Shown here: positions 23,828-26,504 of the stretch, in pieces
Position numbering within the stretch: the stretch's first letter is position 1
Layout: each line of letters begins with the position of its first letter
NCBI GenBank assembly: GCA_027064305.1
Contig: JAMOPY010000032.1
Coordinates: 1 to 38,047 of the forward strand
DNA length: 38,047 nucleotides
Reading direction: 5' to 3'
Source: Methanobacteriota archaeon
GTDB lineage: Archaea; JAADCQ01; Methanopyri; Methanopyrales; Methanopyraceae
The notes under the pieces: model-generated
What the model saw: the letters and a program-made list of their open reading frames with translations, nothing else
The model's database searches: none
What the model was told of the DNA's origin: nothing
Program-made: the position numbers and the translations under genes

Positions 23828-25122
23828 GATCGCTCCCGCTGCCGCTCGAGCGCCTCCCTGACGATCTTGATCGCGCAGTACTCTCCGCACATGGAGCACT
23901 GCTCGCGTGCCTGCGGGGGCCGCTCCTCCCGGTACCGCCGCGCCCGCTCCGGGTCCAGCGCCAGCTCGAACTGCCGCTCCCAGTCCAGCTCCCAGCGGGC
24001 CCTGCCCATCTCCTCGTTCTCCTTAACCGCGTACTCCAGGCCCCGCGCCGTGTCGGCCGCGTGCGCCGCGATCCGGGCGGCGATCACGCCTTCGATCACG
24101 TCCCGCACGTCGGGCAGGGCCAGGTGCTCGGCCGGCGTCACGTAGCACAGGAAGTCCGCCCCGTGGTAGGCCGCGATCGCCCCGCCGATGGCGGCCGCGA
24201 TGTGATCGTAGCCCGGGGCCACGTCCGTGGGCACGGGACCGAGCACGTAGAAGGGGGCGCCGTCGCACACCCGCTTCTGCAGCCTGACCACCGCCGGGAT
24301 CTGGTCCAGGGGCACGTGGCCCGGTCCCTCGACCATCGCCTGCACCCCGTACTCCCGGCACCGGTCGACCAGCTCGCCCTGCACGAGGAGCTCCCGGTGC
24401 TGGGCGGGATCGTTCGCGTCGAGGACCGAGCCCGGGCGCATGGCGTCCCCCAGGGACAGGGTCACGTCGTGCTCGCGCGCCAGCTCCAGGATGTAGTCGA
24501 AGTGCTCGTACAGCGGGTTCTCCTCCTCGTGATGTATCATCCAGGCGGCGACGATCGCGCCTCCCCGGGAGACCACGCCCAGGAGTCGGCCGCGGCGGAG
24601 CAGGTCGTTCAGCGCGTCCCACGTGACCGCGCAGTGGATCGTCATGAAGTCGACCCCGTCGCGCATGTGCCGCTCGACCGCCCGGAGCATGTCGTCCTCG
24701 TCCATGTCCACCACGGCCCGGCCCCGGGACGTGGCCTCCACGGCCGCCTCGTACACCGGCACCGTGCCCACCGGCACGTCCACGGCCTCCATGATGCGGC
24801 GCCGGATCTTCCCGAGGTCGCCGCCCGTGCTCAGGTCCATGACGGTGTCGGCCCCGTGCTCGACGGCGGCCCTCGCCTTCTCCACCTCCAGGTCCGGGTC
24901 GCAGACCTCCGGTGAGGTCCCCACGTTCGCGTTCACCTTGACCCGCAGTCCCTCACCGATCCCGACGGGTCGAACCTCCTCCCGACGGTCCGCGTGGGCC
25001 GGCACGACCACCCGGCCCTCCGCGACCCGGCGGGCGAGCTTCTCCGGGCGGACCCCCTCCTCCTCGGCGACGCGCCGTACGGTCTCCGGAACCCCGCGCC
25101 GGCACTCCTCCATCAGGGTCAC
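23824..25122 (-). CDS. thiC: Phosphomethylpyrimidine synthase (ThiC family)
   Basis: KVNANVGTS, GADTVMDLSTGG, VDFMTIHC, VSRGG, ENPLY, SLGDAMRPG, EGPGHVP, CYVTPAEHL, CSMCGEYC. GTG start overlaps the upstream stop. A BzaA/B-type paralog is not excluded. Confidence 0.92.
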   Translation of the reverse strand: MTLMEECRRGVPETVRRVAEEEGVRPEKLARRVAEGRVVVPAHADRREEVRPVGIGEGLRVKVNANVGTSPEVCDPDLEVEKARAAVEHGADTVMDLSTGGDLGKIRRRIMEAVDVPVGTVPVYEAAVEATSRGRAVVDMDEDDMLRAVERHMRDGVDFMTIHCAVTWDALNDLLRRGRLLGVVSRGGAIVAAWMIHHEEENPLYEHFDYILELAREHDVTLSLGDAMRPGSVLDANDPAQHRELLVQGELVDRCREYGVQAMVEGPGHVPLDQIPAVVRLQKRVCDGAPFYVLGPVPTDVAPGYDHIAAAIGGAIAAYHGADFLCYVTPAEHLALPDVRDVIEGVIAARIAAHAADTARGLEYAVKENEEMGRARWELDWERQFELALDPERARRYREERPPQAREQCSMCGEYCAIKIVREALERQRERS

Positions 25123-26504
25123 GGGATCCCTACCCCTAGCCACCTTATGAGGGAGCCGAGGGCGGACTTCCCGGCGGAGACGGCCTGGGCCGCTATCACG
25201 TCGGTTAACCTGACCAGGGGCTCCGGCAGGTAGGCGTGCCGCACGTGCACGCCCACCAGTAAGGCGATCACGGTGGCCAGGAGCCAGAGGATGCCCCAAA
25301 GGGTGGCGGCCGTCAGCTCGTCCCGGTTGCGGCGGGCCGCGGCGGTCGGGAAGTAGAGCACGGTGGGGATTCCCAGGTACGGGTGCAGGGCCGCGAGCGA
25401 GGCGGTGACGATCACGGCTCCGATCATTCTCCCCAGCTCCGACGGTACCCGACGGAAGAATATCATCGAGAACCGAGGCGGCTCAACGTACGCGGCCAGG
25501 TAGGGGCCGAACCGGAAGGCGACGAACGAGGCCCGGTACCCGATCCGATTCATCGCCTCGACCGCGTTCTCCGCCGCCCGCCCACCGGAGTCGCCAACCC
25601 CTATTTTAACCCTCACCCCGTGATGACTCGCCCGCTCAATCGCCCGGATCGCGGCCCTCAGCGCCCTTCCCTTCGTGGGGAACTGGGCGAGTACGTCGTC
25701 GCCTCCCGCTTTGTGGTCCAGCACGACGCCCCCCTCCTCGGCGATGAGGTCAATCAGCTCCCGCATCACGCTCTCCAGGTACGGCCTCCCCATCTCCTCC
25801 ACCAGCCGCGTGGACTCCATGACGTCCAGGTACAGGGTGCGGTCCGGCCCGGTCTCCGTTCCCTGCGGCTTCGGCAGCTCGATCTCCCCGCCCGCGTGAA
25901 GGACCCACTCCCCCCCGGCCTTGGAGAACGCCGCGAAGGGACCGTCAGCCCGCCGCTCGGCCTTCGCGTACCGTTCGACCGCGGCCGCCTGGGTGAGTCC
26001 GATCGCGGCGCTGCCGCCGAGCTCCAGCGGGACGGAGACGGCCAGCCGCAGGGCGTGGTACTTGGAGGGGGCCTCGACGACGGCCCCGTCCACCTCCCAG
26101 CTCACCACGGTGCACCCGAACTCCCGGGCCAGCGACTCGAGCGGCTTCCGGCGCCCGCCGGGGACCCGGCAGTACACGTACCGGGTCTCGTCCAGGACCA
26201 TCTTGGAGACCAGGGCCACCTCGGGGTCATCGTACTTGAATCGCTCCACGCGAGACAGCCCGAACCCCTCCTCCCGCAGCCTCCGCGCCAGATCCCCCAG
26301 CTCGTTGGAGATGATCTGAGGGGCGGGGATCGGGTACTTCTCGAAGTAGGCCAGCAGGAGCGCGTTCTCGTTCAGGATGTCCACGATCTCCGCCTCCTCC
26401 TCCGTGAGCGGGTCGTACCGGGTCCCGCAGGCGATCACGCGACCGCGGATCCTCAGCCCGGCGGACAGCCTCACGAGGAGGAGTCCCAGCCGCGGGAGCC
26501 TCAA
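25119..26504 (-). CDS. Membrane-anchored protein with a nucleotide-cyclase-like palm domain (GGDD)
   Basis: LYLDVMEST...GGVVLDHKAGGDDVLAQF...ALRAA...VKIGVG...AAENAVEAM, a preceding degenerate palm-like repeat, and about 3 C-terminal hydrophobic helices. Confidence 0.65.
   Translation of the reverse strand: MRLPRLGLLLVRLSAGLRIRGRVIACGTRYDPLTEEEAEIVDILNENALLLAYFEKYPIPAPQIISNELGDLARRLREEGFGLSRVERFKYDDPEVALVSKMVLDETRYVYCRVPGGRRKPLESLAREFGCTVVSWEVDGAVVEAPSKYHALRLAVSVPLELGGSAAIGLTQAAAVERYAKAERRADGPFAAFSKAGGEWVLHAGGEIELPKPQGTETGPDRTLYLDVMESTRLVEEMGRPYLESVMRELIDLIAEEGGVVLDHKAGGDDVLAQFPTKGRALRAAIRAIERASHHGVRVKIGVGDSGGRAAENAVEAMNRIGYRASFVAFRFGPYLAAYVEPPRFSMIFFRRVPSELGRMIGAVIVTASLAALHPYLGIPTVLYFPTAAARRNRDELTAATLWGILWLLATVIALLVGVHVRHAYLPEPLVRLTDVIAAQAVSAGKSALGSLIRWLGVGIP

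What the first reader, a model, noticed from the sequence alone, without database searches (positions are those of the whole stretch)
25119..26504. Membrane-anchored GGDD palm-domain protein: possible novel nucleotide second-messenger synthase
Seen: a metal-binding LYLD strand, a GGDD hairpin (25695-25706), a KIGVG strand and an A..A..A helix. These are preceded by a degenerate second palm-like unit (WEVDGAVV...SAAIG....A) and followed by about 3 TM helices. Established: this signature is shared by class III cyclases, GGDEF, the Cas10/mCpol palm and GTP cyclohydrolase III (soluble, GGDN). One dead plus one active palm is the Cas10 arrangement. Inference: a CRISPR-independent cyclic (oligo)nucleotide synthase fused to a membrane sensor/effector. 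It lies in an operon (orphan - this gene - thiC - Pnkp-like ligase - asnB) joined by 0-bp or overlapping junctions, with a 12-bp gap before asnB. This is the best protein-level candidate for an undescribed signalling or defence/repair system here.
Basis: partly seen in the sequence, partly recalled or inferred. Interest (0 to 1): 0.78.

Follow-up and report, generated by a model that had tools for sequence, protein, structure and literature searches.

The report
Membrane-anchored tandem-palm cyclase-like protein
This gene encodes a membrane-anchored enzyme that looks like a nucleotide cyclase, is paired with a partner gene in nearly all methanogens with a pseudomurein cell wall, and has not been studied experimentally.

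Summary
Window 25119-26504 (-) encodes a 461-aa protein with an unassigned N-terminal domain, two copies of a short palm domain, and 2-4 C-terminal hydrophobic helices. The two palms are an internal duplication (hhalign 97.8%, E 9.7e-13). The second keeps D227 and G267-G268-D269-D270 in all 14 diverse homologs.

By sequence and predicted fold, its nearest known relatives are class III nucleotidyl cyclases (1ybt: profile E 5.5e-6; Z 11.4). It matches no Pfam or NCBIfam model.

It is not a defence island. The family is single-copy in 6 of 6 Methanopyrus-type genomes and 197 of 201 Methanobacteriales genomes. No full-length homolog from another lineage appeared among 1.84 billion cluster representatives.

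The only partner conserved across both orders is the abutting upstream gene (79 of 80 loci). In Methanobacteriales that partner carries an NYN RNase domain, which is missing here. thiC, the ligase and asnB are neighbours only within Methanopyri.

The pair most probably equals "cluster D" of Lupo et al. 2025. That paper lists it as specific to pseudomurein archaea and leaves it uncharacterised.

Best reading: a membrane-tethered NTP-using cyclase or nucleotidyl transferase that works with its partner. The product is unknown. GTP cyclohydrolase III is unlikely.

The parts
26505..27203 (-). It is homologous to the C-terminal ~200 aa of the Methanobacteriales NYN-RNase protein and has no NYN domain here.
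   Evidence: Start read from the DNA. The longer 320-aa ORF runs antisense over the aspartate kinase start and is broken in L009. Alignment A3. The partner abuts the palm gene in 79 of 80 loci. Model pLDDT 75.9, with no clear fold match.
25119..26504 (-). Tandem-palm membrane protein, 461 aa (the finding).
26205..26441 (-). N-terminal alpha/beta domain (residues ~22-100) with family-invariant G27, T28, K/R29, P32, E37, E39 and N45. Its fold is unassigned.
   Evidence: Secondary structure. Conservation. No profile match to either palm, to class III cyclases or to GCH III.
25875..26195 (-). Palm unit 1 (residues ~104-210). In Methanopyri it has lost the beta-1 acidic residue (R113 here). K148, R153, T171, E177, R178, K195 and E199 are conserved.
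   Evidence: hhalign against palm 2: 97.8%, E 9.7e-13. hhalign against the class III set: 90.7%, E 1.2e-6. Conservation.
25470..25862 (-). Palm unit 2 (residues ~215-345), the putative catalytic domain.
   Evidence: VIA Z 11.4 to 1ybt over residues 219-342. Profile against PDB: 1ybt E 5.5e-6. hhalign against the class III set: 98.6%, E 6.9e-16.
25824..25835 (-). L224-Y-L-D227, the beta-1 strand with the first putative metal-binding aspartate. It is followed by the conserved S231-T232.
   Evidence: Aligned by HMMER to the F-T-D...G-S-T stretch of Rv1900c. D227 is invariant.
25695..25706 (-). G267-G-D-D270 hairpin, holding the second putative metal-binding aspartate(s). K/R265 lies four residues before D269.
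   Evidence: Invariant. Aligned to the G-D of the class III hairpin.
25590..25604 (-). K301-I-G-V-G305, the beta-4 strand, followed by S306 and the helix carrying E312.
   Evidence: G302, G304, S306 and E312 are conserved. Aligned to the R-I-G-I strand of class III cyclases.
25140..25448 (-). C-terminal hydrophobic helices (residues ~353-455), a membrane anchor.
   Evidence: Four helices in the model. Hydropathy peaks at 361-379 and 396-426. The region is not conserved between orders.

Best explanation
The gene encodes a cytoplasm-facing, membrane-tethered enzyme built from a duplicated, shortened class III cyclase-type palm domain. The two palms pack as an intramolecular pseudo-dimer.

Proposed mechanism (inferred): palm 2 supplies D227 and D269/D270, which hold two divalent metal ions and the triphosphate of an NTP. 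S231-T232 sit at the phosphate-binding turn. Palm 1 supplies conserved basic and polar residues (K148, R153, E177, R178, K195) to the shared site. A hydroxyl group attacks the alpha-phosphate, pyrophosphate leaves, and the result is a cyclic or linear nucleotide signal.

The enzyme works together with the protein of the translationally coupled upstream gene. That protein's conserved C-terminal domain either regulates the enzyme or reads its product. In Methanobacteriales it is fused to an NYN ribonuclease, which would link the signal to RNA cleavage.

Shown here: the predicted fold, the internal duplication, residue conservation, gene pairing and lineage distribution.

Inferred only: catalysis, the nature of the product, the cytoplasmic orientation, and the partner's role.
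For: Fold:
- Residues 219-342 match class III cyclase domains: 1ybt Z 11.4, rmsd 2.5 A, 116 residues aligned; 7r65 Z 11.1.
- The best Foldseek hits are adenylyl cyclases, 1.2e-5 to 1e-4.

Sequence:
- The family profile hits 6 PDB sequences at E<=10. All 6 are class III cyclases, the best being 1ybt at E 5.5e-6. That alignment puts D227 on the F-T-D aspartate and D269 on the G-D aspartate.
- I Pfam-scanned 9 of the 22 weaker (E>1e-7) hits from the search of 1.84 billion representatives. All 9 carry PF00211.
- Domain-level hhalign of palm 2 against those class III segments gives 98.6%, E 6.9e-16. These segments were picked by my own profile, so they are the class III members most like this family.

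Duplication: palm 1 against palm 2 gives 97.8%, E 9.7e-13.

Conservation: D227, S231, the GGDD motif, K278, G302 and G304 are invariant, and S306 and E312 nearly so, at 25-30% identity to the window protein.

Partner:
- It lies upstream on the same strand in 79 of 80 loci. The one exception starts at a contig edge.
- The gap is 0 bp in 33 loci and an overlap of 1-8 bp in 18.
- PF11977 NYN matches at E 1.1e-22 in the Methanobacterium partner.
- NYN acidic motifs are kept in 70-71 of 72 partners.

Distribution: 6 of 6 and 197 of 201 genomes.

Print: Lupo et al. 2025 list an NYN + polytopic 'nucleotide cyclase' pair as specific to pseudomurein archaea (I read section 6 and Table 1).
Against: - There is no biochemical evidence of any kind.
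- None of 14 family members reaches any Pfam palm family even at E<=10, and there is no NCBIfam hit.
- The last third of the palm does not align with class III cyclases. The hhalign match stops at beta-4, and the domain spans 124 residues against 163 in 1ybt. The position where class III enzymes carry their transition-state Asn is N313 here but not conserved. The roles of these class III residues are recalled from memory.
- I found no known cyclic-nucleotide receptor in the 89%-complete genome. PF00027 was absent. The SAVED search was uninformative because its control was silent.
- The partner's conserved domain has no recognisable sensor fold: best Z 7.5, within the tool's stated noise.
- In Methanopyri the partner has lost the NYN domain, so RNA cleavage cannot be the conserved output.
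- A fold in this superfamily also fits hydrolase or polymerase chemistry.
Confidence: 0.5

Rival explanations
1. It is a divergent GTP cyclohydrolase III (ArfA-type). This enzyme is also a tandem palm protein and opens the imidazole ring of GTP for riboflavin and F420 synthesis. On this reading it would fill the missing step in Methanopyrus.
For: - GCH III 2qv6 aligns over both palms of the model (residues 106-330, 190 residues aligned, Z 8.8; Foldseek 6.9e-4).
- The language-model search with residues 15-210 lists GCH III clusters among the nearest at 0.86-0.87. Scores below 0.9 count only as leads.
- No PF05165 match in 0 of 6 Methanopyrus-type genomes and no PF00925 in the window's own genome.
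- Yet a creatininase-family gene (PF02633; I recall this family includes the ArfB deformylase) is present in 3 of 3 Methanopyrus-type genomes. A GCH III-type activity therefore seems to be needed and unassigned.
Against: - All 5 of 5 Methanobacteriales genomes tested hold both this family and a canonical GCH III (E 1e-102 to 1e-118), so the family as a whole is not a substitute.
- Profile-profile comparison with GCH III is insignificant: 0.2% for the whole protein and at most 1.2% for single domains.
- The motif is GGDD rather than the GGDN invariant in the GCH III alignment.
- GCH III is soluble, whereas this protein is membrane-anchored.
Confidence: 0.08
2. It is a template-independent nucleotidyl transferase or small polymerase that acts on RNA ends. 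It would work with the NYN ribonuclease partner in RNA processing or turnover at the membrane, and would not make a diffusible signal.
For: - The conserved partner carries an NYN RNase domain in Methanobacteriales, with catalytic-type motifs kept in 70-71 of 72.
- The palm also resembles Y-family polymerase palms (1im4 Z 9.3, 4f50 Z 8.9).
- tRNA-modification genes (archaeosine TGT, an MnmC-like methyltransferase) lie upstream in Methanobacteriales.
- An RNA-ligase-like gene lies two genes downstream in Methanopyri.
Against: - The closest relatives by sequence are cyclases, not polymerases.
- I detected no nucleic-acid-binding domain.
- Methanopyri keep the pair without the NYN domain.
- The neighbouring tRNA and ligase genes are each conserved in only one order.
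Confidence: 0.15
3. It is a nucleotidyl transferase or regulator tied to pseudomurein synthesis at the membrane. One example would be forming a nucleotide-activated precursor such as the UDP-linked glutamate of the peptide pathway.
For: - The family occurs only in the two pseudomurein-bearing orders, and it is membrane-anchored.
- Lupo et al. recovered the pair in a screen for genes specific to pseudomurein archaea.
Against: - The gene never lies in the Mur-ligase/MraY clusters A or B, and the authors judge cluster D 'probably not' involved.
- A MobA-like NTP transferase inside cluster B is the more obvious candidate for the UMP transfer.
- Sharing a lineage is not evidence of sharing a pathway.
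- The neighbours are arginine, tRNA and NAC genes.
Confidence: 0.1
4. It is a non-catalytic nucleotide-binding protein: a pseudo-enzyme used as a membrane sensor or scaffold.
For: - Tandem class III-like proteins that only bind ATP exist. The entry 6yii is titled as such and matches at Z 9.2.
- The C-terminal third of the palm differs from that of active cyclases.
Against: All three acidic residues and the phosphate-turn S231-T232 are conserved across two orders. That is the pattern expected of an active site.
Confidence: 0.1

Closest known systems
Class III nucleotidyl cyclase catalytic domain (PF00211), e.g. Mycobacterium tuberculosis Rv1900c (1ybt) and M. avium Ma1120 (4wp3)
   Same: Same palm fold (Z 11.4 and 10.5). 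Significant profile match from beta-1 to beta-4 (E 5.5e-6). The aspartate after beta-1, the S/T turn, and the G-D hairpin with a basic residue four positions earlier all align. A two-domain pseudo-dimer occurs in soluble adenylyl cyclase, which aligns over both palms (4clf, Z 9.1).
   Different: No Pfam match in any of 14 members. The domain is about 40 residues shorter, and the part after beta-4 does not align. The hairpin reads GGDD. There is an extra conserved N-terminal domain. The anchor is C-terminal. The partner is fixed.
Minimal CRISPR polymerase (mCpol, PF18182; OptS of Panoptes, 9mnr) and the Cas10 palm
   Same: Short ~120-residue palm with a GGDD hairpin (9mnr: Z 9.7, 108 of 119 residues aligned; Cmr2 4h4k: Z 9.6). 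The language-model search places residues 15-210 nearest an mCpol cluster at 0.88, which is a lead only. The layout of one degenerate and one intact palm is the Cas10 layout (recalled).
   Different: No match to PF18182 or PF22335 anywhere in the genome at E<=10. No profile hit to these in PDB. No CRISPR array in the window. No known CARF-type receptor was searched for (I did not run a CARF model) and the SAVED search was uninformative. It is a core gene, not a defence-island gene.
GTP cyclohydrolase III (PF05165, MJ0145, 2qv6)
   Same: An archaeal tandem of two short palms with a GGD-x hairpin and a G-I-G-K strand in the second.
   Different: Sequence relation is insignificant. GGDN versus GGDD. 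GCH III is soluble. The two co-occur in 5 of 5 Methanobacteriales.
GGDEF diguanylate cyclases (PF00990)
   Same: Palm fold (DgcZ Z 8.9), a GG-acidic-acidic hairpin, and an 'A..A' helix after beta-4.
   Different: No Pfam or PDB profile hit. Structural scores are lower than for class III. The tandem fusion takes the place of a homodimer.
'Cluster D' of Lupo et al. 2025 (OG0001213 Zc3h12a-like NYN RNase + OG0001214 'nucleotide cyclase', >1 TM)
   Same: Same description: a syntenic pair, specific to Methanopyrales and Methanobacteriales, with a cytoplasmic NYN protein next to a polytopic cyclase-like protein.
   Different: Identity is inferred from the description only. [quoted passage not shown]

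Membership tests
Class III nucleotidyl cyclase (PF00211) | Cyclase-homology palm fold | tested here: met
   1ybt Z 11.4, rmsd 2.5 A, 116 residues aligned over model residues 219-342. The top Foldseek hits are adenylyl cyclases. The model is predicted, with pLDDT 77-91 in this region.
Class III nucleotidyl cyclase (PF00211) | Two metal-binding aspartates, one after beta-1 and one in the beta-2/beta-3 hairpin (their role is recalled) | tested here: met
   D227 and D269 align to the F-T-D and G-D aspartates of 1ybt. Both are invariant in 14 homologs and at least 95% conserved in 84.
Class III nucleotidyl cyclase (PF00211) | Scores above the Pfam gathering threshold | tested here: not met
   0 of 14 members match PF00211 at E<=10. 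The six-frame search of the own genome finds none at E<=1.
Class III nucleotidyl cyclase (PF00211) | Dimerisation arm and the transition-state Asn/Arg pair after beta-4 (recalled) | tested here: inconclusive
   The profile alignment ends at beta-4. The domain is about 40 residues shorter. N313 is not conserved. An equivalent could come from palm 1.
Class III nucleotidyl cyclase (PF00211) | Forms a 3',5'-cyclic NMP from an NTP | not testable with these tools
   Needs an enzyme assay.
mCpol / Cas10 palm (PF18182, PF22335) | GGDD hairpin on a minimal palm | tested here: met
   GGDD is invariant. 9mnr Z 9.7, 108 residues aligned.
mCpol / Cas10 palm (PF18182, PF22335) | Sequence match to the family models | tested here: not met
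   No match in the whole own genome at E<=10. No such chain among the PDB profile hits.
mCpol / Cas10 palm (PF18182, PF22335) | Linked to CRISPR loci or to a CARF/SAVED-type effector | tested here: inconclusive
   No array in the window. The SAVED search had a silent control. The partner's fold is unassigned.
GTP cyclohydrolase III (PF05165) | Tandem of two palm domains | tested here: met
   Internal duplication at 97.8%. 2qv6 aligns over residues 106-330.
GTP cyclohydrolase III (PF05165) | Sequence match to the family model, with the GGDN hairpin | tested here: not met
   No PF05165 match in the own genome. hhalign 0.2% and at most 1.2%. GGDD versus the invariant GGDN.
GTP cyclohydrolase III (PF05165) | One such enzyme per genome, so phyletic complementarity is expected of a substitute | tested here: not met
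   Both are present in 5 of 5 Methanobacteriales genomes.
GGDEF diguanylate cyclase (PF00990) | Match to the GGDEF domain model and the GG[DE]EF motif | tested here: not met
   0 of 14 members match at E<=10. The motif is GGDD followed by V/L/F. The fold match is weaker (Z 8.9).
Lupo et al. cluster D (OG0001214) | Polytopic 'nucleotide cyclase' next to an NYN RNase gene, restricted to pseudomurein archaea | tested here: met
   Pairing in 79 of 80 loci. NYN at E 1.1e-22. Distribution. The accession-level match could not be checked because the supplements were closed.

The most novel reading that the evidence does not exclude
Methanogens with pseudomurein walls share a private, ancient second-messenger pathway. 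A membrane-tethered tandem-palm synthase makes a nucleotide signal that has not yet been identified. A new type of receptor domain, encoded by the translationally coupled partner, reads that signal. In Methanobacteriales the receptor drives an NYN ribonuclease, which would couple the state of the membrane or envelope to RNA decay.
Probability: 0.2. Interest if true: 0.8.

Novelty: new variant of a known kind. Interest (0 to 1): 0.5.

Why it matters
Nucleotide second messengers are poorly mapped in archaea, and no cyclase of this kind has been characterised in methanogens.

This gene pair is present in about 98% of the sampled Methanobacteriales and Methanopyrales. These orders include the dominant gut and rumen methanogens. 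The pair was found nowhere else, which makes it a lineage-defining function of unknown purpose.

If it makes a signal, it opens a testable regulatory pathway. It could also be a lineage-specific target in organisms that matter for methane emission.

If it is ordinary, it is at least a new and deeply branching form of the class III cyclase fold: a fused duplicate of a shortened domain. That is useful for understanding how GCH III, mCpol, GGDEF and cyclases relate to one another.

Tried and rejected
- **Pfam and NCBIfam** on the protein and on 13 homologs: no palm family found.
- **phmmer of the single sequence against PDB**: only E 0.46-0.58.
- **Partner protein**: no Pfam or NCBIfam hit. The Atlas search was unusable, since its own model has pLDDT 0.50. 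Foldseek gave nothing at E<=0.001. The best VIA score was Z 7.5, to tRNA-synthetase appendages, with weaker chorismate-mutase, YjgF and tautomerase-like rows, all within the tool's stated noise. A profile search found 435 proteins. The 120 listed are all ~340-aa proteins carrying PF11977, and every named one is Methanobacteriales-type or 'Euryarchaeota'. No informative outside relative turned up.
- **Complex prediction**, palm protein residues 1-350 with the partner: no verdict, score 0.00 in both runs. This says nothing either way.
- **GCH III idea**: tested and set aside.
- **Operon idea** (thiC, ligase, asnB as functional partners): conserved only inside Methanopyri.
- **Receptor hunt**: PF00027 absent. 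The PF18145 search was uninformative. I did not search CARF models.
- **N-terminal domain**: no relation to either palm, to class III or to GCH III by hhalign.
- **Literature**: searches for 'Methanobacteriales + Methanopyrales + nucleotide cyclase', 'archaea + class III + adenylyl cyclase + methanogen + cAMP' and mCpol terms found no study of this family other than Lupo et al. Passages of PMC8233210 held nothing relevant.
- **Not attempted**: I made no RNA-seq check of expression.

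
Full report
**What is there**

The ORF at 25119-26504 on the minus strand encodes 461 aa. It starts with TTG directly after the TGA stop of the upstream gene, and a GGAGGG stretch lies a few bases before the start. GGDD is residues 267-270, which map to nt 25695-25706. 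The window is about 70% G+C. Its closest protein relatives are labelled Methanopyrus.

**No curated family matches**

Pfam and NCBIfam give nothing for this protein or its upstream neighbour at E<=1. None of 14 diverse family members matches a Pfam palm family even at E<=10.

**Fold**

An AlphaFold2 model built on six sequences has mean pLDDT 75.3, and 77-91 across residues 220-300.

Residues 219-342 match class III cyclase domains best:
- 1ybt: Z 11.4, rmsd 2.5 A, 116 residues aligned
- Cyclic UMP synthase 7r65: Z 11.1

Other palm families score slightly lower:
- mCpol 9mnr: Z 9.7
- Cmr2 4h4k: Z 9.6
- Y-family polymerases: about Z 9
- GGDEF domains: about Z 8-9

Foldseek also ranks adenylyl cyclases first. 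Three tandem-palm structures align across residues 106-342: sAC 4clf, 6yii and GCH III 2qv6. Their rmsd is high, meaning both domains match but their relative orientation differs.

**Sequence relationships**

A profile of the Methanopyrus-type sequences was searched against 1.84 billion cluster representatives. It found 27 proteins at E<=0.001. Five of them are family members: P0005 and P0008 are full length, and P0007, P0009 and P0023 are fragments. I Pfam-scanned 9 of the other 22, and all 9 carry PF00211.

The 14-sequence family profile hits six PDB sequences at E<=10. All six are class III cyclases, with 1ybt best at E 5.5e-6. That alignment places D227 on the aspartate after beta-1, S231-T232 on the G-S-T turn, D269 on the hairpin aspartate, and the K-I-G-V-G strand on R-I-G-I.

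At domain level, palm 2 against 19 class III segments gives 98.6%, E 6.9e-16. Those segments were chosen by my own search, so they are biased toward the family. The alignment ends at beta-4. Palm 1 gives 90.7%, E 1.2e-6. GCH III gives at most 1.2%.

**Internal duplication**

Profiles of residues 104-210 and 215-345 align at 97.8%, E 9.7e-13 over 101 columns.

The alignment puts R113 opposite D227, and D139-G140 opposite D269-D270. In most Methanobacteriales these positions in palm 1 are E113 and E140. So palm 1 is clearly degenerate in Methanopyri but may keep some metal binding in the other order.

Both halves share two motifs: P-(S/T)-K-x-x-A-x-R and G-x-(S/T)...E. The N-terminal ~80 residues match neither palm.

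**Membrane anchor**

The model has four helices between residues 353 and 455. Hydropathy flags 361-379 and 396-426. Methanobacteriales orthologs are about 60 residues shorter, have about two hydrophobic helices, and share no conserved residues in this region. This looks like an anchor, not a conserved sensor.

There is no signal peptide-like feature. Arg/Lys-rich stretches flank the first helix and the loop at residues 389-394. That fits a cytoplasmic catalytic part, though this orientation is inferred.

**Distribution**

- Only five close homologs, all Methanopyrus-type, appeared in the word-indexed search.
- The exhaustive search added a 402-aa Methanobacterium protein (E 3e-43).
- With that protein as query, 881 proteins scored E<=0.001. 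The 120 listed are all ~400-aa proteins, and every named one is Methanobacterium-type or 'Euryarchaeota archaeon', mostly annotated 'hypothetical protein'.
- In species-representative genomes, 194 of 263 pattern-matched stretches are relatives. The best 80 are all Methanopyri, Methanobacteriales or unclassified archaeal bins.
- 6 of 6 genomes of the window's own phylum-level group have one copy.
- 197 of 201 genomes sampled from the phylum of a Methanobacteriaceae genome have a match. Two genomes show two matches, and four show none; their completeness was not given.

These two orders are the pseudomurein-bearing archaea, as stated in the abstract of PMC11915815.

**The conserved partner**

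I called ORFs in the 80 loci and clustered them.

- One cluster (median 341 aa) lies directly upstream on the same strand in 79 of 80 loci. The exception begins at a contig edge.
- The gap is 0 bp in 33 loci, an 8-bp overlap in 13, and a 1-bp overlap in 5.
- In Methanobacterium the partner has an N-terminal Zc3h12a-like NYN ribonuclease domain (PF11977, E 1.1e-22, residues 3-137), followed by about 200 residues with no known family.
- The window's 'orphan' is homologous to those ~200 residues only (A3).
- Its real start is the TTG at 27203, giving 232 aa. The longer 320-aa reading runs antisense over the start of the aspartate kinase gene and is interrupted in L009.
- No PF11977 match exists elsewhere in this 89%-complete genome.
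- NYN acidic motifs are kept in 70-71 of 72 Methanobacteriales partners.
- The partner model (pLDDT 75.9) shows two beta-alpha-beta-beta units. It has no convincing structural match.

**Other neighbours**

Within Methanopyri, the order is aspartate kinase (divergent), partner, palm gene, thiC, ligase. This holds in 8 of 8 loci. asnB follows the ligase in L010, and lies about 2.8 kb further on in L011.

In Methanobacteriales the flanks are different:
- Upstream: an MnmC-like methyltransferase, archaeosine tRNA-guanine transglycosylase, NAC, and a calcineurin-like phosphoesterase.
- Downstream: a small protein, then argJ and arginine-synthesis genes (I assigned the latter from their sequence; they were not scanned).

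So thiC, the ligase and asnB are lineage-local neighbours. The setting is housekeeping, not a defence island.

**In print**

Lupo et al. 2025 screened for genes specific to pseudomurein archaea (mSystems, PMC11915815; I read the abstract, section 6 with Table 1, and passages). They list 'cluster D': OG0001213, a Zc3h12a-like NYN RNase with 0 TM, and OG0001214, a 'Nucleotide cyclase' with >1 TM. [quoted passage not shown]

This fits the pair found here. I could not confirm the identity by accession because the supplements were closed. My three further literature searches found no other study.

**GCH III**

Methanopyrus-type genomes lack a PF05165 match (0 of 6). The own genome lacks PF00925. 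A creatininase-family gene is present in 3 of 3. A GCH III-type step therefore seems unassigned in this genus.

However, 5 of 5 Methanobacteriales genomes carry both a canonical GCH III and this family, and the profiles are unrelated at sequence level. I give this rival about 0.08.

**Receptors and CRISPR**

No cNMP-binding domain, no Cas10 palm or mCpol match at E<=10, and no repeat array in the window. The SAVED search was uninformative.

**Mechanism**

The intact acidic triad, the phosphate turn, and the homology to class III cyclases point to two-metal-ion attack on the alpha-phosphate of an NTP, with pyrophosphate release. The site would be formed between the two fused palms.

The strict coupling to the partner gene argues that the two proteins act together. 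The NYN fusion in one order suggests an RNA-cleaving output there. The loss of the NYN domain in Methanopyri shows that the conserved core is the unknown C-terminal domain.

None of this chemistry is shown. The product could be a cyclic mononucleotide, a dinucleotide or something else.

**Verdict**

This is a distinct, uncharacterised branch of the class III cyclase-type palm superfamily with an unusual fused-duplicate architecture and a fixed partner. It is a core gene of pseudomurein methanogens, and it has been flagged but not studied in print.

Noticed in passing
window 26505-27467 (-) versus 27246-28649 (+): The longest ORF of the upstream gene (320 aa) owes its first ~88 codons to an antisense shadow of the conserved start of the aspartate kinase gene. 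The true gene starts at the TTG at 27203. That leaves only ~42-54 bp between the two divergent genes.
   Followed up: yes
whole genome G000 and Methanopyrus-type genomes G001-G005: No GTP cyclohydrolase III (PF05165) in 0 of 6 genomes, and no GTP cyclohydrolase II (PF00925) in the own genome. A creatininase-family (ArfB-like) gene is present in 3 of 3. The first step of riboflavin/F420 pyrimidine synthesis therefore seems unassigned in this genus.
   Followed up: partly
L023:4220-4975 and 64 other Methanobacteriales loci; own genome G000:C17:34608-35324 (L092): A calcineurin-like metallophosphoesterase gene sits directly upstream of the NYN partner gene in 65 of 80 loci, with a 4-bp overlap in L023. 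Its 42%-identical homolog in the window's genome lies on another contig. It could be a phosphodiesterase for the same pathway, or simply a neighbour.
   Followed up: partly
window 22751-23827 (-): RNA-ligase-like gene (PF09414 E 2.8e-8, PF01068 E 1.1e-5). It probably starts at M25 of the ORF, overlapping the thiC stop as ATGA. It is conserved downstream of thiC in all 8 Methanopyri loci and is not linked to the palm gene in Methanobacteriales.
   Followed up: partly
palm unit 1, residues 113 and 139-140 (window 26083-26168): At the positions equivalent to the metal-binding aspartates, most Methanobacteriales orthologs have Glu (E113, E140). Methanopyri have R/T113 and D139 or E140. The 'dead' palm may therefore be only half dead outside Methanopyri.
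   Followed up: partly
L031:4920-5954: One Methanobrevibacter partner protein has substitutions at three of the NYN acidic motif positions (VDS, VNR and SNN in place of ADA, ADH and SND). This suggests an inactive RNase domain in that lineage.
   Followed up: no
window 28646-29374 (+): A 242-aa ORF overlaps the aspartate kinase stop by 4 bp and is conserved in two Methanopyri loci (95% and 71% identity). I did not analyse its function.
   Followed up: no
window 29361-31994 (-): The long ORF of the Ski2/Hel308-like helicase has about 150 N-terminal codons of low-complexity, proline- and aspartate-rich sequence. These look like an upstream extension rather than part of the gene.
   Followed up: no
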